A stretch of 64,000 bases of DNA from Deltaproteobacteria bacterium (GCA_023489335.1 JAMDCP010000011.1:135057-199056), one strand, 5' to 3'. Shown: positions 40,144 through 51,160, counted from the first letter of the stretch. Numbers and translations are program-made. The notes: a model not told the origin generated them from the letters alone.

Positions 40144-40188
40144 TGGTAGGCACGGGCGGTCTCGAACCGCCGACCCCTACCGTGTCAA
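40144..40188 (-). repeat. 45-bp att repeat: a duplicated 3' half of tRNA-Val(GAC)
   Basis: Identical to 51085-51129 (tggtaggcacgggcggtctcgaaccgccgacccctaccgtgtcaa). Confidence 0.9.
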
Positions 40189-40307
40189 ACTAAAAAGATA
40201 AAATTAACCAAATGGGCTTTTTACCTTCAGTTATAGATTTATTAACGGATTGACGGCATTATGTATTTTACGATATTTTCTATATATTCTTATGCTTTCG
40301 GATATTT

Positions 40308-40329
40308 TGTGTGACAGTTGTGTGACAGT
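40308..40329 (+). repeat. Tandem GTGTGACAGT(T) pair, candidate integrase arm-type site
   Basis: The 21-mer gtgtgacagttgtgtgacagt at 40309-40329 is identical to 51018-51038 at the other end of the element. Confidence 0.6.
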
Positions 40330-40423
40330 AATTTTTTTCAAAAATTTAAAATTATTCTTTATTTTATATTTTTTTAAAAAGTTTTTAAAAAATAGGCAAG
40401 ACACGGCAAGACAGCAAGACAAG

Positions 40424-40480
40424 CCTTATAAATACTGCATTTGTTTGTCTTGCTCTTGTCTTGCCGTCTTATCGCATAGA
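40424..40480 (+). repeat. 57-bp repeat, copy A (copy B is at 42744-42800; 4 mismatches)
   Basis: ccttataaatactgcatttg...cttgtcttgccgtcttatcgcataga. Copy A is preceded by an imperfect inverted copy of its GTCTTGCC-rich half (40395-40422). Confidence 0.8.
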
Positions 40481-40621
40481 AATATAAAGGTTTTTATATT
40501 TTTATAACATCAGCTTTTAAAAACTCATCATATATATTTTAAATTAATATTTAAATAATATTAAAATAATACCAATTTGAATATGCTGGAGTAATACCAT
40601 AATAATTAATTAAATCTTATT

Positions 40622-41008
40622 TTAACGCTGTTTTTTTACAACAACAGCATATATTGATTCAATGCATTTTTCAAGTCCGAAATTTAGACTCTCATCTTTT
40701 AGATTATAAATTTCTTTTACCTTGTAAACCAAATTCTCAAGTTCTATATCCTTTTTATTTTGCGCTTCTTTTTTACCGGTATTAAAATCCGATATGAAAT
40801 AATTCAAATCGACTTTAAAAATTTCTGCCAAGTTTAGAAGATAATCAAGCGGTATTTTGAATTTTCCAGTCTCGTAGCTATATATTTGAGTATATGCAAC
40901 ATTTAGCATCTCCGCCAATTTTTCTTGAGAAAACTTTAATTCCCGCCTTTTAATTCTTATCTTAAAACCGATATGTTTAAATAGCGCTGCATTTTTATGT
41001 TTAGGCAT
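40622..41008 (-). CDS. XRE/cI-like HTH transcriptional regulator
   Basis: HTH_3 pattern IKRRELKFSQEKLAEMLNVAYTQIYSYETGKFKIPLDYLLNLAEIF. Confidence 0.8.
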   Translation of the reverse strand: MPKHKNAALFKHIGFKIRIKRRELKFSQEKLAEMLNVAYTQIYSYETGKFKIPLDYLLNLAEIFKVDLNYFISDFNTGKKEAQNKKDIELENLVYKVKEIYNLKDESLNFGLEKCIESIYAVVVKKQR

Positions 41009-41023
41009 AAAATTAATTTCTCA

Positions 41024-41046
41024 ATATTTAAGTTTAACTTAAATAT
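41024..41046. promoter_or_regulatory. Perfect 23-bp palindrome ATATTTAAGTTtAACTTAAATAT (candidate operator)
   Basis: Lies 16 bp upstream of the XRE start codon. The half-site ATATTTAAGTT recurs at 41106-41116 inside the divergent promoter. Confidence 0.6.
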
Positions 41047-41100
41047 CTATTATTAAGACAATTTATAGGAAATACTATAATCTTAAACATAAAATAATTA

Positions 41101-41129
41101 TTGACATATTTAAGTTAAAGATGTAAAAT
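41101..41129 (+). promoter_or_regulatory. Near-consensus sigma70 promoter for the cargo OMP gene
   Basis: TTGACA at 41101-41106, 17-bp spacer, TAAAAT at 41124-41129. Confidence 0.6.
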
Positions 41130-48728: not shown

Positions 48729-49566
48729 GCAACAGGTCGGGAATACGACAGTGTCTTTTGTCAGGGGAGGAATATTCTCCCCTGTAGTAAAGTCCCCGAA
48801 ACGTCCGCAGGATGATATTATTTTTAAAAATCACTGGGCAAAGTTAACTATATTAAAAAAATACAATCGAATGACTCAGGTTCATATTAACATTCTTGAC
48901 TGCATCATTGCTTCCGCCATAAAAATAAATAAAGGGTTTGTTAAAATGAGTAATGGTGAGATTCGACTGTTTTTTGAACCATACACGGTTCTTAAAATGC
49001 TCGAACAAAAGGGGAAAAATTATAAATGGCTCAGGGGTAAGTTGGACGATCTTGTTGCAACATTAATCGAAATAGAAACGGATAAAAATACGGCGCATGA
49101 AGGGATACTTCATTTTCACAAATGGAGTAAAACCCTGAATCCTAATGCCGTTAAAAAAACATCAAGATTTAAAAGCGGCGCCGGATATTATTATGTGGCG
49201 GTAATTAACCCGGGATTTGCTAATTTTTTCAATATTGAGATTAATATGAATTATATCAAGATACTGCCCGACATTATCCGGTTGCATGACGGCATTCTTC
49301 AAGCGTTTGTCCGGTTTTGTATAAGCCATAATGAACTCAACATGCCACTTATAGATGTTTTATATAACATAAGAGCAGAAATAAGCGACGACCGGCAAAG
49401 ACAGAGAACTATTAAAAAAATAAACGACAATGCCGGATTGCTTTATGATAAATTCAAAATAAAATTAGAAAATGGAATAGTATATCATAGACACGCCGAC
49501 ATTGAAGGCATATACTTTATATCGCCGGAGACATCCGCTGATAAAGGTGTAGACGATAAAAGGTAA
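48685..49566 (+). CDS. Hypothetical protein, candidate iteron-binding replication initiator
   Basis: RBS AAGGAG before the ATG at 48685. Overlaps the end of the helicase gene and is followed directly by iterons. No family recognised by eye. Confidence 0.4.
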   Translation: MKRKKTTTMPNTVFKQQVGNTTVSFVRGGIFSPVVKSPKRPQDDIIFKNHWAKLTILKKYNRMTQVHINILDCIIASAIKINKGFVKMSNGEIRLFFEPYTVLKMLEQKGKNYKWLRGKLDDLVATLIEIETDKNTAHEGILHFHKWSKTLNPNAVKKTSRFKSGAGYYYVAVINPGFANFFNIEINMNYIKILPDIIRLHDGILQAFVRFCISHNELNMPLIDVLYNIRAEISDDRQRQRTIKKINDNAGLLYDKFKIKLENGIVYHRHADIEGIYFISPETSADKGVDDKR

Positions 49567-49592
49567 CTGGAAAGCATTGAAAAATAAGGCAA

Positions 49593-49663
49593 CGACAACA
49601 TTTAATACCAAGCCCGACAACATTTAATACCTAAAATGGTTAAAAACGACAACATTTAATACC
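49593..49663 (+). repeat. Three perfect 17-bp iterons CGACAACATTTAATACC
   Basis: Copies at 49593-49609, 49615-49631 and 49647-49663 (spacing 22 and 32 bp). Confidence 0.9.
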
Positions 49664-49666
49664 TGT

Positions 49667-49725
49667 TCAAGAGATATTCAAGAGAATATCAAGAGCGATT
49701 TTAACTCTTAAGGCGTTAAAATCGC
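49667..49725 (+). repeat. Three TCAAGAG units at 11-bp spacing, then an 11-bp-stem hairpin
   Basis: TCAAGAG at 49667, 49678 and 49689. GCGATTTTAAC (49695-49705) pairs with GTTAAAATCGC (49715-49725). Confidence 0.8.
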
Positions 49726-49763
49726 CTATTAAAAAAGAAGATTTTTTACTTTTAAGAATTAAT

Positions 49764-49985
49764 ATGCTAAAGCTAATCGACATAAAAGCGTTATCAGAAA
49801 TATTAAGCGTCAAAAGCTCCACTCTCTACCAATGGGTAGAGCTTGGTAAAATTCCGCATTACAAATTAAACGGCGCAGTAAGATTCAACCATAGCGAGAT
49901 ATTAGATTGGCTCTCCGCTTGCAAAATCGAACAGGTAGGGTATAATACCATTGAAGGTAGAAAGCCCCGAAAAGGAGGTGCATAG
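49764..49985 (+). CDS. AlpA/excisionase-family HTH protein
   Basis: Pattern IKALSEILSVKSSTLYQWVELGKIPHYKLNGAVRFNHSEILDWL. Lies directly upstream of the integrase. Confidence 0.7.
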   Translation: MLKLIDIKALSEILSVKSSTLYQWVELGKIPHYKLNGAVRFNHSEILDWLSACKIEQVGYNTIEGRKPRKGGA

Positions 49986-49992
49986 TAATATT

Positions 49993-51090
49993 ATGGGGCT
50001 AATCAGAAAACCAAACTCCCGTTTTTGGTGGATAAATATTAAAGTCGGCACTAAAAGAATATTTGAATCGACGAAAACGGAAAACAAGAAAAAAGCGCAA
50101 GAAATTTTAAGCATAAGGCATTCCGAGTTATTAACCGGACAAAATAGCCGGATATTAGAGCCGCAAGAGAAAGAAAAAACTAATATTTATACATTTAAAG
50201 ACTTATGCGCAAGTTATTTAGATTGGTGCAAAGGCAGGCAAGCATCCTATAAAATTAAAAAGTATGTGATACCGAAATTGCAAGAAAGGTTTAAAAATAT
50301 GACTTTAAACGAATTTAATTATAGGACGATAGAAAATTTGCAATCCGATTATATAAAAGCAAATTACAAGCCTGCTTATATCAATAAAATAACGGCAATT
50401 GTAAAACACATGTTTAATAAGGCTTTGGATTGGGAAATGGTCACAGAAGAAGATTTAAAGCGGGTCAGAAAAGTAAAACAGCTTAAGGGCGAAAGCAAGC
50501 GTTTGAGGTATTTATCCGATGAAGAGGCGGAAAGGTTAATATCTAATTGTGAGCCTTATTTAAAGCCGATTGTGATAACGGCATTAAATACGGGGATGAG
50601 AAAATCGGAAATATTTAACCTGACTTGGGACAGGGTGGATATAAATAACCGTATAATCCTGTTGGACAAAACAAAGAACGGCGAAAGACGGGAAATACCG
50701 GTTAACAATACCCTATACGAAACATTATCGGGTATGGTAAGGAATATCCATTGCCCTTATGTATTTTATAACCCTAAAACCTTAAAGCCTTACGATAATG
50801 TCAAGCGTAGCTTTGCAACGGCACTCCGCAAATCGCATATTCTTGATTTTCATTTCCACGATTTAAGGCATACATTCGCAAGCAGGTTAGTTATGGCAGG
50901 TATAGACTTAACAACGGTTAAAGAGCTTTTAGGACATAAGGACATTAAGATGACCTTAAGGTATTCTCATTTATCACAAGCGCATGTTAAGAATGCAGTA
51001 AGCGTTTTGGATAAAAAGTGTGACAGTTGTGTGACAGTTGGGTATGATGAAGAAATTGTTAAGCCCGAAAAACCTTATAACATATGGTAG
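49993..51090 (+). CDS. Tyrosine site-specific integrase
   Basis: Catalytic region ...TGMRKSE...HFHDLRHTFAS...LLGHKDIKMTLRYSHL. The stop codon lies inside the 3' end of the tRNA. The ORF is also open from 49951. Confidence 0.85.
   Translation: MGLIRKPNSRFWWINIKVGTKRIFESTKTENKKKAQEILSIRHSELLTGQNSRILEPQEKEKTNIYTFKDLCASYLDWCKGRQASYKIKKYVIPKLQERFKNMTLNEFNYRTIENLQSDYIKANYKPAYINKITAIVKHMFNKALDWEMVTEEDLKRVRKVKQLKGESKRLRYLSDEEAERLISNCEPYLKPIVITALNTGMRKSEIFNLTWDRVDINNRIILLDKTKNGERREIPVNNTLYETLSGMVRNIHCPYVFYNPKTLKPYDNVKRSFATALRKSHILDFHFHDLRHTFASRLVMAGIDLTTVKELLGHKDIKMTLRYSHLSQAHVKNAVSVLDKKCDSCVTVGYDEEIVKPEKPYNIW
51018..51039 (+). repeat. Second copy of the tandem GTGTGACAGTT pair (within the integrase 3' end)
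   Basis: Identical 21-mer to 40309-40329. Confidence 0.6.
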
Positions 51091-51160
51091 GCACGGGCGG
51101 TCTCGAACCGCCGACCCCTACCGTGTCAAGGTAGTGCTCTAACCCCTGAGCTACGCGCCT
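51085..51160 (-). tRNA. tRNA-Val (anticodon GAC), CCA encoded
   Basis: The reverse complement AGGCGCGTAGCTCAGGGGTTAGAGCACTACCTTGACACGGTAGGGGTCGGCGGTTCGAGACCGCCCGTGCCTACCA folds as a cloverleaf. The anticodon loop is TTGACAC. Confidence 0.9.

What the first reader, a model, noticed from the sequence alone, without database searches (positions are those of the whole stretch)
40144..51129. A 10.9-kb integrative element in tRNA-Val(GAC) with its own replication module and no structural genes (satellite/PICI-like)
Perfect 45-bp direct repeats (40144-40188 and 51085-51129, the 3' half of the tRNA) bound a compact element. Its contents are:
- an integrase, two Xis/AlpA-type HTH genes, and an XRE repressor with a palindromic operator;
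- ParB-like and methyltransferase genes, a DnaB-like helicase, and an unknown protein followed by 17-bp iterons;
- cargo genes: an OMP, a lipoprotein, an HMA-like protein and a 515-aa orphan.
There are no capsid, terminase, tail or conjugation genes. The size and the gene order (int - regulators - replication - accessory) resemble phage-inducible chromosomal islands or small integrative replicons. Such elements appear not to have been characterised in lineages like this one.
Basis: partly seen in the sequence, partly recalled or inferred. Interest (0 to 1): 0.7.

Follow-up and report, generated by a model that had tools for sequence, protein, structure and literature searches.

The report
Plasmid-like integrative island in tRNA-Val
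A 10.9-kb mobile island sits in a tRNA-Val gene of an uncultured acid-mine-drainage bacterium and carries its own plasmid-type replication machinery but no transfer or virus genes; it is a new member of a known kind of hitch-hiking element, and its relatives suggest a conjugative helper rather than a phage.

Summary

New findings:
- The "unknown protein" is a dual winged-helix, RepE/RctB-like iteron initiator. With the DnaB-like helicase it forms the same gene pair as on Campylobacterota plasmids, whose iterons share the core TATTAAATG.
- ParB and the methyltransferase are one 491-aa gene in other assemblies. The window has a +1 frameshift in an A-run.
- The "515-aa orphan" is a conserved backbone gene.
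- Tandem GTGTGACAGT repeats at both ends look like integrase arm sites.
- The tRNA-Val site is a strain-variable hot spot with an older integrase remnant, tandem arrays, and sibling islands that carry a DUF5906 primase-helicase instead.

Relatives with the same Rep/DnaB/Int backbone carry a TrbL_3-like gene and its neighbour, which elsewhere sit in a full type IV secretion cluster. No phage packaging gene, viral contig or phage hit was found.

Verdict: an integrative, plasmid-like replicating island, closest in logic to SGI1 and PIME-type mobilizable elements and to tycheposons. The PICI or satellite reading remains a weaker rival. No excised form was seen, and the transfer route is inferred.

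The parts
39838..40128 (+). C-terminal remnant of an older, different integrase, ending 15 bp before attL. It is the relic of an earlier island at the same tRNA and lies outside the element.
   Evidence: tblastn gives 57% identity to Int residues 277-379. The 65-aa ORF is called PF00589 in other assemblies. No older distal att was found to its left.
40144..40188 (.). attL: the distal 45-bp copy of the 3' part of tRNA-Val(GAC).
   Evidence: Perfect direct repeat of 51085-51129; no matches in shuffles.
40309..40329 (+). Tandem GTGTGACAGT repeats with an 11-bp period, 121 bp inside attL. Putative integrase arm-type site (P' arm).
   Evidence: The motif occurs only four times in 64 kb, as two tandem pairs at the two ends (0.34 expected). 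The tRNA-Lys relative L005 has a different tandem repeat at both ends at nearly the same distances.
40394..40480 (+). Long hairpin with three GCAAGAC repeats in each arm, a conserved loop and a conserved tail (CGTCTTATCGCATAGA). A cis-acting site of unknown role (candidate oriT, relic ori or protein-binding array).
   Evidence: Found. The DNA fold is -21.8 kcal/mol, z = -5.7. In sibling island L040 the same motif (three CAAGAC-type repeats and the loop with one mismatch) lies at the 3' end of the DUF5906 replicase gene, and L013 has a 3-mismatch match to the loop at the same position. L044 has a GCAAGAC/GTCTTGC array near attL.
40622..41008 (-). XRE-family HTH regulator (128 aa).
   Evidence: PF01381 E 2.7e-11; PHROG repressor families.
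41024..41129 (.). Operator and promoter region between XRE and OMP. It holds the perfect palindrome 41024-41046, a third half-site at 41106-41116, and the best sigma-70-like promoter at 41101-41129.
   Evidence: Exact half-sites occur only here in the window.
41189..41926 (+). OmpA-type 8-stranded beta-barrel outer-membrane protein (cargo).
   Evidence: PF01389 E 2.3e-15. An XRE/OMP divergent pair is also present in sibling island L044.
42026..42682 (+). Signal-peptide or lipoprotein-like protein (216-218 aa) with no family (cargo).
   Evidence: The translation shows LTGC after a hydrophobic N-terminus. No Pfam, NCBIfam, PHROG or PADLOC hit.
42723..42800 (+). Second, degenerate copy of the 78-nt motif. 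The left hairpin arm is lost.
   Evidence: 83% identical to 40403-40480. It does not fold (z = 0.67).
43262..43489 (+). HMA-like small protein (75 aa) with a degenerate metal motif (GMMSEKC, a single Cys).
   Evidence: PF00403 E 6.8e-7; motif read from the translation.
43668..45155 (-). Conserved unknown backbone protein (495 aa from the conserved MDDKAINK start; 515 aa from the upstream TTG). It is divergent from the replication operon.
   Evidence: 13 homologue clusters, all metagenomic. 49% identical homologue in sibling island L013. No family, defence or fold match. The AF2 model is poor (pLDDT 62).
45325..45546 (+). Small HTH protein (73 aa) at the head of the rightward operon; AlpA/Xis-like with weak support.
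   Evidence: PF12728 HTH_17 E 0.0029, below the curated cut-off. An HTH_17 gene sits in the same position in L005.
45458..45661 (+). Small acidic protein (52-67 aa, depending on the start), followed by a terminator-like hairpin at 45669-45695.
   Evidence: ORF and gene calls; terminator scan.
45816..47292 (+). ParB_N-N6/N4 DNA methyltransferase fusion. It is 491 aa and intact in other assemblies, and split in the window by a +1 frameshift in the A8 run at 46453-46460.
   Evidence: PADLOC hits to methyltransferase families only.
47454..48728 (+). DnaB-family helicase (424 aa) with Walker A GATSAGKT. It overlaps the rep start by 44 nt.
   Evidence: PF00772 E 8.3e-12, PF03796 E 1.3e-6, phrog_19. 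Motif read.
48685..49566 (+). Replication initiator ("Rep293") with a dual winged-helix, RepE/RctB-like fold.
   Evidence: AF2 pTM 0.73. Foldseek: RctB domains 2-3 E 2.4e-5, RepE54, Rep-iteron complex. Full-length relatives on 8 Campylobacterota plasmids. 351 cluster representatives at E <= 1e-3.
49591..49695 (+). Putative oriV: three 17-bp iterons (spacing 22 and 32), then three 11-bp TTCAAGAGA-type repeats.
   Evidence: The same iterons and spacing occur in L002; covarying iterons occur in L005 and on plasmids, with shared core TATTAAATG. The 92% identical block shared with L002 ends at 49695. No DnaA-box-like match in this region.
49695..49725 (+). Perfect 11-bp inverted repeat (hairpin) between the ori and alpA.
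   Evidence: DNA fold z = -4.2.
49764..49985 (+). AlpA/excisionase-type HTH (73 aa), directly upstream of int.
   Evidence: TIGR01764 excise domain E 6.7e-8, above its cut-off; PF12728 in gene calls.
49993..51090 (+). Tyrosine integrase (365 aa from ATG; 379 aa from TTG at 49951). The catalytic R, HxxR, H and Y are present. Its stop codon lies inside the att core.
   Evidence: PF00589; XerA/XerC-type hits; residues read; sequence.
51018..51038 (+). Tandem GTGTGACAGT repeats 47 bp from attR, inside the 3' end of int. Putative arm-type site (P arm).
51085..51160 (-). Intact tRNA-Val(GAC). Its 3' 45 nt (51085-51129) is attR.

Best explanation
The segment 40144-51129 is an integrative, plasmid-like replicating island.

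**Integration (shown by anatomy).** A tyrosine integrase recombined an element-borne copy of the last 45 nt of tRNA-Val(GAC) with the chromosomal gene. This left perfect direct repeats and an intact tRNA.

**Excision (inferred).** Excision would use the integrase with the adjacent AlpA/Xis-type protein. Tandem 10-mers placed about 120 bp and about 47 bp inside the two ends would serve as arm-type sites.

**Replication.** Fold, synteny and iteron conservation show what the parts are; activity is inferred. Once circular, the element would replicate as a theta-type iteron plasmid. The winged-helix initiator Rep293 binds the three 17-bp iterons immediately downstream of its gene and loads the element's own DnaB-family helicase. 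No DnaA box is present.

**Other functions (inferred).** The ParB-methyltransferase probably self-methylates the DNA against restriction. The XRE protein controls a separate cargo cassette of an outer-membrane barrel and a lipoprotein.

**Transfer (inferred, least certain).** The island has no transfer genes, so it must hitch-hike. The most likely route is a conjugative helper, either by an unrecognised oriT or by co-excision with a neighbouring element in a tandem array. This is inferred from relatives that share its Rep, DnaB and Int backbone and carry T4SS-associated genes, and from a relaxase element using the same att site.

**Family.** It belongs to a modular family in Ca. Acidulodesulfobacterium-like bacteria in which integrase, replicase and cargo cassettes are shuffled.
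For: **Integration anatomy**
- Perfect 45-bp repeats and an intact tRNA.
- An intact integrase and an excisionase-family gene.
- GTGTGACAGT occurs only as two tandem pairs at the two ends. L005 has a different tandem repeat at matching distances.

**Replicon**
- The Rep293 model (pTM 0.73) matches RctB, RepE54 and a Rep-iteron complex.
- The same DnaB-like/Rep pair is found on Sulfuricurvum plasmid pSULKU03, and parA-parB-rep on pSULFM1.
- Iteron arrays lie directly after rep on those plasmids, in L002 and in L005, and share the core TATTAAATG while the flanks covary.
- A 2.1-kb block covering DnaB, Rep and the ori is 92% identical to an island in tRNA-Leu that has a 29%-identical integrase. 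The block ends exactly at the end of the ori repeats.

**Mobility**
- With an identical DsrE flank, the site holds this island, a TrwC/ParA element, a DUF5906 sibling, or another integrase element.
- An older integrase remnant lies beside attL.
- Contig L029 runs att-to-att and then continues into another element, which indicates a tandem array.

**Conjugative link**
- L005-type relatives (Rep 56%, Int 59%) carry 361-aa and 375-aa proteins. These are 73-75% and 45-50% identical to proteins in a cluster with P-loop_TraG, TrbI, CagX and SLT hits (L051) and beside a TrwC relaxase (L050). Homologues carry a weak TrbL_3 hit.

**No phage link**
- No structural or packaging PHROG hit, no IMG/VR locus, and no phage-record hit for the helicase.
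Against: - No excised circle or empty site was seen. The 81-nt attR/attP probe found nothing in the JGI collection, which seems to lack these samples.
- Every contig that reaches the site is either occupied or broken there.
- The window island has no relaxase, no T4SS-like gene and no DNA shared with the fetched relaxase or T4SS loci beyond att and int, so the conjugative route rests on relatives.
- The TrbL_3 assignment is a weak precomputed hit that hmmscan did not reproduce at E <= 0.1.
- Four ORFs remain without function, and any of them could be a phage-interference or packaging factor.
- The helicase C-terminal domain scores weakly.
- The ParB-MTase is frameshifted in this window.
- All genomes are MAGs, so co-residence with a helper is unproven.
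Confidence: 0.6

Rival explanations
1. It is a phage satellite (PICI-like or P4-like). A helper phage would induce excision and replication, and the 11-kb genome would be packaged into helper capsids, using a cos or pac site or one of the unknown proteins.
For: - The size (10.9 kb), the order int/alpA, replication module, ori with iterons, accessory genes, and the absence of structural genes match the PICI layout (PMC6092414).
- Sibling islands at the same site carry a DUF5906 protein, read here as a primase-helicase; from memory that family is the replicase type of P4-like satellites and some PICIs.
- The ParB-MTase matches PHROG families.
- Some PICIs lack terS and rely on cos sites, so the lack of packaging genes is not decisive.
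Against: - The initiator is plasmid-type, with plasmid relatives only.
- No relative of Rep, the helicase or the 495-aa protein was found in 2.9 million viral contigs. tblastn with the helicase found nothing in 50,697 phage records.
- No terS, capsid or interference family hit.
- The att site is shared with a relaxase-bearing element.
- Backbone relatives carry T4SS-linked genes.
- No candidate helper prophage is present in the window.
Confidence: 0.2
2. It is a decaying or domesticated island that no longer moves. It would be inherited vertically in one strain lineage, with a replication module that is a relic.
For: - The same island is 99.9% identical at the same site in many assemblies.
- No attP or empty attB was observed.
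- The ParB-MTase is frameshifted in the window.
- An older integrase remnant next door shows that decay happens here.
Against: - The 45-bp repeats are perfect, and int, alpA, rep and the helicase are intact.
- The frameshift is a single A in a homopolymer, absent from the other assemblies, and may be an assembly error.
- The replicon cassette is 92% identical to one in another island at another tRNA, which indicates recent exchange.
- Occupancy of the site differs between strains that have identical flanking proteins.
Confidence: 0.12
3. It is an integrative plasmid with no helper. It would shuttle between an integrated and an episomal state and spread by vesicles, transformation or cell fusion.
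For: - It has a complete plasmid-type replicon plus int and xis.
- Tycheposon-like elements with the same logic were reported in vesicle and viral fractions (preprint 10.1101/2020.12.28.424599).
Against: - No partition (ParA) or stability system suited to a long episomal life was found. ParB_N is fused to a methyltransferase.
- Nothing here bears on vesicles or competence.
Confidence: 0.08

Closest known systems
[quoted passage not shown]
   Same: - It has int and xis at one end.
- A dedicated plasmid-type rep gene has 17-bp iterons immediately downstream, in the rep-xis interval.
- Family members swap the initiator type: RepA_C versus replicase/PriCT in SGI1 (PMC7433901), and DnaB plus Rep293 versus DUF5906 here.
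- Replication is separate from transfer functions.
   Different: - There is no sequence relationship: Rep293 hits no Pfam or NCBIfam family.
- The island has no mobilisation genes (mpsAB or traN/G/H analogues) and no known helper.
- It integrates in a tRNA rather than in trmE.
- It encodes its own DnaB-family helicase, and the ori has no DnaA box.
PIMEs (Pseudomonadota integrative mobilizable elements; bioRxiv 10.64898/2026.01.12.698999)
   Same: - The modular plan is int, alpA, replicase with oriV, and a large accessory region.
- PIMEs are defined by co-occurrence with trbJ and trbL. The tRNA-Lys relatives of this island carry a TrbL_3-like gene and its neighbour.
   Different: - The window island lacks the trbJ/trbL-like genes.
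- The host is outside Pseudomonadota.
- No homology of the core genes was tested or is expected.
- The helper is unknown.
Gram-negative PICIs (for example EcCICFT073)
   Same: - The size is similar, with int, an alpA-type regulator, a replication module followed by an iteron ori, accessory genes and no virion genes (PMC6092414).
   Different: - There is no pri-rep primase-type replicase.
- No terS, cos, capsid-size or interference gene was recognised.
- alpA lies directly upstream of int at the 3' end of the operon.
- The att site is shared with other element types.
- No phage link was found.
Tycheposons (Prochlorococcus and other marine bacteria; preprint 10.1101/2020.12.28.424599)
   Same: - Tyrosine-recombinase elements target tRNA 3' ends and carry replication genes (including DnaB-type helicases) and niche cargo.
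- They build tandem arrays separated by partial tRNAs, and leave fragmented integrases behind. Compare here.
   Different: - Membership of the tycheposon integrase clade was not tested.
- The phylum and habitat differ.
- Here the replicon is a plasmid-type iteron initiator.
Replicons of Campylobacterota plasmids pSULKU03 (NC_014756.1) and pSULFM1 (NZ_CP046073.1)
   Same: - They encode full-length Rep293 homologues at 22-26% identity (E down to 2e-18).
- On pSULKU03 a DnaB-like gene lies directly upstream.
- Iteron arrays directly downstream contain ATTAAATG.
   Different: - Those are free 50-80 kb plasmids with no integrase next to rep in the stretches read.
- The proteins are annotated only as hypothetical.
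- The helicases are barely alignable.

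Membership tests
Phage-inducible chromosomal island (PICI) | A 10-15 kb island with an integrase at one end, flanked by att direct repeats | tested here: met
   10,941 bp; integrase at the right end; perfect 45-bp repeats.
Phage-inducible chromosomal island (PICI) | An AlpA (Gram-negative) or Stl/Str (Gram-positive) regulatory module | tested here: inconclusive
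   Two HTH_17/excisionase-type genes are present: 49764-49985 is solid and 45325-45546 is weak. Their regulatory role is unknown, and the layout (alpA directly upstream of int) differs from EcCICFT073.
Phage-inducible chromosomal island (PICI) | A pri-rep (primase/helicase) replicase followed by an iteron ori | tested here: not met
   An iteron ori is present, but the initiator is a RepE/RctB-like winged-helix protein plus a DnaB-family helicase. No primase domain was found.
Phage-inducible chromosomal island (PICI) | A packaging or interference module (terS, cos/pac, capsid-size redirection, ppi/rpp) | tested here: not met
   No PHROG or Pfam hit of that kind. cos and pac cannot be tested without a helper genome. 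Four ORFs remain unknown.
Phage-inducible chromosomal island (PICI) | Induction and packaging by a helper phage | not testable with these tools
   No relative of Rep, the helicase or the 495-aa protein was found in viral contigs, and tblastn with the helicase found nothing in the phage records. This is only negative, indirect evidence.
P4-like satellite | An alpha primase-helicase (D5/DUF5906 type) with psu, sid and delta genes and cos | tested here: not met
   None of these is in the window. DUF5906 is present only in the sibling islands L013 and L040.
Integrative mobilizable element (IME, SGI1 or PIME type) | A site-specific integration and excision module with att repeats | tested here: met
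Integrative mobilizable element (IME, SGI1 or PIME type) | Its own oriT and/or relaxase or mobilisation genes | tested here: inconclusive
   No relaxase or T4SS family was found in the window, and no DNA is shared with the fetched relaxase or T4SS loci. The hairpin at 40394-40480 is a candidate cis site only. Relatives do carry TrbL_3-like and neighbouring genes.
Integrative mobilizable element (IME, SGI1 or PIME type) | A helper conjugative element in the same host | not testable with these tools
   L051, from another MAG, carries a cluster with P-loop_TraG, TrbI, CagX and SLT hits. The first part of it, up to the TrbL_3-like gene, is also on L052, from a metagenome that also holds the island (JGI 3300039716). 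Host linkage is unknown.
Iteron-type plasmid replicon (RepE/RctB-like) | An initiator with two winged-helix domains | tested here: met
   AF2 model with pTM 0.73. Foldseek: 5tbf_B E 2.4e-5 (probability 1.0), 7rva_C, 1rep_C and 8aan_A. TM-scores are modest (0.33-0.45).
Iteron-type plasmid replicon (RepE/RctB-like) | Directly repeated iterons next to rep, conserved and covarying in relatives | tested here: met
   The shared core is TATTAAATG.
Iteron-type plasmid replicon (RepE/RctB-like) | DnaA box(es) and an AT-rich unwinding element in the ori | tested here: not met
   No TTWTNCACA-like site, even with one mismatch, between 49567 and 49763. An AT-rich DUE was not specifically tested.
Tycheposon | A tRNA-targeting tyrosine recombinase element with replication genes and cargo, forming tandem arrays with partial tRNAs and decayed integrases | tested here: met
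   compared with the description.
Tycheposon | An integrase belonging to the tycheposon tyrosine-recombinase clade | not tested
   No phylogeny was made.
Prophage (intact or defective) | Virion, lysis or terminase genes inside or contiguous with the element | tested here: not met
   None lie between the att sites. The flanks are chromosomal: PNPOx, CBS, ExbBD and TonB genes on the left, and DsrE, TusA and a Pyr_redox_2 (SQR-like) gene on the right.
Integrative conjugative element (ICE or AICE) | A T4SS, or an FtsK-like TraB, plus a relaxase | tested here: not met
   None found.

The most novel reading that the evidence does not exclude
The island and its siblings could be a previously undescribed family of helper-dependent hitch-hikers in Ca. 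Acidulodesulfobacteriota. The conserved but unrecognisable backbone would encode a new relaxase-free mobilisation or helper-sensing mechanism. That backbone consists of the 495-aa protein divergent from the replication operon, the small HTH and acidic proteins, and the GCAAGAC-repeat hairpin found near attL and at the ori position of the siblings. Replicase cassettes (RepE-like initiator plus DnaB, or DUF5906) would plug in interchangeably.
Probability: 0.25. Interest if true: 0.55.

Novelty: new member of a known kind. Interest (0 to 1): 0.35.

Why it matters
- It is, as far as I could find, the first anatomically resolved mobile element for an uncultivated acid-mine-drainage phylum (Ca. Acidulodesulfobacteriota). 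The tRNA-Val/DsrE junction is shown to be a strain-variable integration hot spot.
- It assigns a function, iteron-binding replication initiator, to a protein family that is annotated only as hypothetical. The family has about 350 clusters at 50% identity and includes Campylobacterota plasmids.
- It gives another example of replicase-cassette swapping in integrative islands, as in SGI1.
- It is a caution that "int, alpA, rep, ori and no structural genes" does not by itself mean a phage satellite. Here the relatives point to conjugation.
- It does not open a long-standing question.

Tried and rejected
- **Viral links.** Rep293 alignment, 495-aa protein alignment and helicase against IMG/VR gave no relatives. 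Helicase against phage records and PLSDB gave nothing.
- **Excised or empty forms.** An 81-nt probe designed to catch attR, attP and tandem junctions found nothing in JGI metagenome contigs, and the collection seems to lack these samples. The 45-nt core alone returned mostly unrelated high-GC tRNA-Val genes plus one sibling island. Look-ups by flanking proteins found no empty site; contigs are occupied or break at att.
- **The 495-aa protein.** Pfam, NCBIfam, PHROG and PADLOC gave nothing. The AF2 model is poor, and Foldseek against PDB and BFVD gave only noise.
- **Older distal att.** None was found to the left of the integrase remnant.
- **tRNA-Val(CAC).** A weak inverted similarity between the attL flank and the tRNA-Val(CAC) flank is not an integrase remnant.
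- **Rfam.** Only the tRNA passed. Two sub-threshold HPnc0260 hits over the att regions were dismissed.
- **oriT search.** blastn of the island against the relaxase and T4SS loci found nothing beyond att and int, apart from a 53-nt intergenic match.
- **TrbL_3.** The hit on homologues of the L005 375-aa protein is a weak precomputed one. hmmscan did not reproduce it at E <= 0.1, so the T4SS link rests mainly on synteny in L051 and L050.
- **Genome-collection scan.** It returned only two distant loci labelled "MAG: bacterium".
- **XRE as master repressor.** Rejected, because exact operator half-sites occur only at the cargo promoter.

Full report
**1. Observation**

ARAGORN finds tRNA-Val(GAC) at 51085-51160 on the minus strand. 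Its 3'-terminal 45 nt (51085-51129) recur perfectly at 40144-40188 and nowhere else in the window. No match appeared in dinucleotide shuffles. The bounded segment is 10,941 bp and has a lower G+C content than the chromosomal flanks.

- an XRE regulator;
- an OmpA-type beta-barrel;
- a lipoprotein-like ORF;
- an HMA-like protein;
- a large unknown ORF on the minus strand;
- a weak HTH_17 protein;
- ParB_N and an N6/N4 methyltransferase;
- a DnaB-family helicase;
- an unknown 293-aa protein;
- an excisionase-family HTH;
- a tyrosine integrase with R, HxxR, H and Y in place.

The 17-bp iterons are real: CGACAACATTTAATACC three times, with spacing 22 and 32 bp. They are followed by three 11-bp repeats and a perfect hairpin. 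So is the palindromic operator at 41024-41046. No virion, terminase, relaxase or T4SS family hits any ORF.

**2. Corrections to the gene list**

- The window differs from public assemblies of the same island by three substitutions in the XRE gene and one extra A in the run at 46453-46460. That extra base splits a 491-aa ParB_N-methyltransferase fusion, which is intact elsewhere.
- The "515-aa orphan" has 13 homologue clusters and a conserved start that gives 495 aa. A 49%-identical copy sits in a sibling island.
- Exact operator half-sites occur only between XRE and the OMP gene, and they overlap the best promoter of the region. XRE therefore most simply controls the cargo cassette, not the replication operon.

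**3. Host and population**

Flanking and island proteins are annotated in NCBI MAGs as "Deltaproteobacteria bacterium". The 90% cluster of the neighbouring DsrE protein includes Candidatus Acidulodesulfobacterium ferriphilum. The G+C content fits that phylum. The same island, about 99.9% identical, occurs at the same site in many NCBI, JGI, ENA and Logan contigs.

**4. The replication module is plasmid-type**

- The 293-aa protein has only seven 90%-identity homologue clusters by word-based search, but 351 cluster representatives at E <= 1e-3 by profile search. It matches no Pfam or NCBIfam model and no PDB sequence.
- Its AlphaFold model (pTM 0.73) shows two helix-strand winged-helix units. 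Foldseek matches RctB domains 2-3 (E 2.4e-5, probability 1.0), RepE54 of mini-F, and a Rep-iteron complex.
- tblastn finds full-length relatives at 22-26% identity on eight Campylobacterota plasmids, all annotated as hypothetical.
- On pSULKU03 the homologue is directly preceded by a DnaB-like gene. On pSULFM1 it follows parA-parB.
- Both plasmids have long iteron arrays directly after the gene, containing ATTAAATG.
- The reverse complement of the window iteron is GGTATTAAATGTTGTCG, and that of relative L005 is CGTATTAAATGGTTTCC. The core TATTAAATG is shared while the flanks covary with the protein.
- An island in tRNA-Leu (L002) has an integrase only 29% identical and defence cargo. It shares 92% nucleotide identity over window 47568-49695, from inside the helicase gene to the last ori repeat. 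This delimits a mobile helicase-rep-ori cassette.
- The ori region has no DnaA-box-like site. This fits, by inference, with the element bringing its own helicase (Walker A GATSAGKT).

**5. Integration module**

- The integrase stop codon lies inside the att core.
- GTGTGACAGT occurs four times in 64 kb, against 0.34 expected. It forms two tandem pairs, one 121 bp inside attL and one 47 bp inside attR.
- The relative in tRNA-Lys (L005: 61-nt repeats, 12.5 kb, integrase 59% identical) has a different tandem repeat, CGTTGCAAAATCGTTGCA, at 120 bp and about 49 bp from the tRNA-derived core.
- The same geometry with a different sequence is what arm-type integrase sites would show. Binding itself is inferred.

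**6. A hot spot with accretion**

- Immediately left of attL lies the C-terminal remnant of a different integrase (57% identity), with no older distal att left.
- Contigs that share an identical DsrE protein carry different elements next to the same intact tRNA-Val:
  - this island;
  - an element with a TrwC relaxase, a DnaD_N/HTH_36 protein and ParA;
  - a sibling island with homologues of the 495-aa protein, ParB-MTase, AlpA (74%) and Int (70%), but a DUF5906 protein (read here as a primase-helicase) in place of helicase plus Rep293;
  - a further integrase element.
- A more distant sibling (L040/L044) also keeps the XRE/OMP divergent pair.
- Contig L029 runs exactly att-to-att and then continues into a HEPN-like gene of another element rather than into the tRNA. 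This indicates a tandem array in that sample.

**7. How it might transfer**

- The window island has no transfer gene.
- The tRNA-Lys relatives have the backbone XRE | HTH_17, DnaB, Rep, iterons ... HTH_17, Int. Between the ori and alpA they carry a block of secreted and membrane proteins.
- Their 361-aa and 375-aa proteins are 73-75% and 45-50% identical to neighbours in L051. There they sit in a cluster with P-loop_TraG (read here as VirB4-like), TrbI, CagX and SLT hits. In L050 they follow a TrwC relaxase inside an int-bounded element.
- Homologues carry a weak TrbL_3 hit, which my own hmmscan did not reproduce.
- The combination of int, alpA, replicase and trbJ/trbL-like genes is the signature used to define PIMEs, which depend on conjugative plasmids.
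- By contrast, no relative of Rep293, the helicase or the 495-aa protein is found in IMG/VR. The helicase has no hit in 50,697 phage records.
- I therefore rank a conjugative helper, or cis-mobilisation within a tandem array, above a phage helper. For the window island itself this is inference from relatives.

**8. Comparison with known systems**

- The logic is closest to SGI1: int, xis, 17-bp iterons in the rep-xis interval, a plasmid-type rep, and family members that swap the initiator type.
- It is also close to PIMEs and to tycheposons. The latter are tRNA-targeting tyrosine-recombinase elements with replication genes and cargo, tandem arrays and decayed integrases.
- It resembles Gram-negative PICIs in size and order. 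It fails two defining tests: a pri-rep replicase and a packaging or interference module.
- It is not a prophage, ICE or P4-like element.

**9. Unexplained items**

- A strong hairpin at 40394-40480 has three GCAAGAC repeats per arm (z = -5.7), with a conserved loop and tail.
- A degenerate second copy at 42723-42800 brackets the XRE-OMP-lipoprotein cassette.
- In L040 the same motif lies at the 3' end of the DUF5906 gene, where this island has its iterons, and L013 has a 3-mismatch match to the loop at that position. L044 has a GCAAGAC/GTCTTGC array near attL.
- It could be a relic ori/crr-like site, an oriT, or a binding array for a conserved backbone protein.
- A 53-nt intergenic block (45741-45793) is shared with L050, upstream of its alpA-int.
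- The 495-aa protein, the small HTH and acidic proteins, and the lipoprotein-like ORF remain without function.

**10. Verdict**

The element is an integrative, plasmid-like replicating island of a modular family in an uncultivated lineage. It is a new member of a known kind.

| Claim | Confidence |
|---|---|
| Site-specific integrative element with an iteron replicon | about 0.85 |
| Full best explanation, including a conjugative rather than phage helper | about 0.6 |

No excision product was observed.

Noticed in passing
window 46453-46460: The A8 homopolymer has one more A than the A7 run in public assemblies of the same island. The extra base splits the 491-aa ParB_N-methyltransferase into two overlapping ORFs. 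It could be an assembly or sequencing error, or a phase-variable tract.
   Followed up: partly
window 52514-52647 and 52882-53015: A 134-nt inverted duplication (99% complementary) lies inside or upstream of the Pyr_redox_2 (SQR-like) gene right of the island. In the other assemblies (L001, L016, L019) this stretch reads differently and the gene is a full 379 aa. It is probably an assembly artefact or a local rearrangement in the window's source.
   Followed up: partly
window 4780-5079 and 5134-5433: A perfect 300-nt direct repeat with 354-bp spacing lies inside the 432-aa ORF at 4660-5958. It may be an intragenic tandem duplication or an assembly artefact.
   Followed up: no
window 39838-40128: An integrase C-terminal remnant (57% identical to the island's integrase) lies just outside attL, followed leftward by low-GC DNA (38.7-40.1 kb) with small ORFs. 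It is the relic of an earlier island at the same tRNA.
   Followed up: yes
window 40394-40480 and 42723-42800; L040 3100-3180; L013 about 6309; L044 12010-12085: A hairpin motif with GCAAGAC repeats in both arms has a conserved loop (CCTTATAAATACTGCATTTG). The tail (CGTCTTATCGCATAGA) is identical in the two window copies. The motif is found near attL, after the lipoprotein gene, and at the ori position of L040; L013 (weak loop match) and L044 (repeat array) are looser matches. Its function is unknown.
   Followed up: partly
window 45741-45793 and L050 12102-12154: A 53-nt intergenic block, 83% identical, lies upstream of the ParB-MTase gene here and upstream of alpA-int in a TrwC-bearing element. 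It may be a shared regulatory site.
   Followed up: partly
window 43262-43489: The HMA-like protein has GMMSEKC instead of the usual GMTCxxC, so only one Cys remains. It may not bind metal in the canonical way.
   Followed up: no
L002 (GCA_054608575.1), 5.8-15.3 kb: A tRNA-Leu(TAG) island with the same helicase-Rep-iteron cassette carries defence-type cargo: SocA_Panacea, DUF2130, SIR2_2 with a HerA/DUF87 ATPase, and a type I HsdM.
   Followed up: no
L051 (GCA_028067815.1) and L052 (JGI 3300039716): L051 carries a type IV secretion cluster (P-loop_TraG, TrbI, CagX, SLT, MoxR-type ATPase, secretin). The first part of it, up to the TrbL_3-like gene, is also on L052. In both it is preceded by an IS200/IS605 pair (Y1_Tnp plus an OrfB/Cas12f-like TnpB) and a HEPN/nucleotidyltransferase pair. 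It is a candidate conjugative helper in the same community.
   Followed up: partly
L035 (pSULFM1) 5860-6560 and L036 (pSULKU03) 2240-2760: RefSeq plasmids of Sulfurimonas and Sulfuricurvum have unannotated iteron arrays (roughly ten or more copies each) directly after a "hypothetical protein". That protein is a Rep293-family initiator, so these look like the unannotated oriV and rep of those plasmids.
   Followed up: partly
window 40053-40182 and 50985-51123: Two sub-threshold Rfam hits to the antisense RNA family HPnc0260 (48-49 bits against a gathering score of 59) lie over the integrase 3' end and att core at both ends. They are probably a by-product of the tRNA-like sequence.
   Followed up: no
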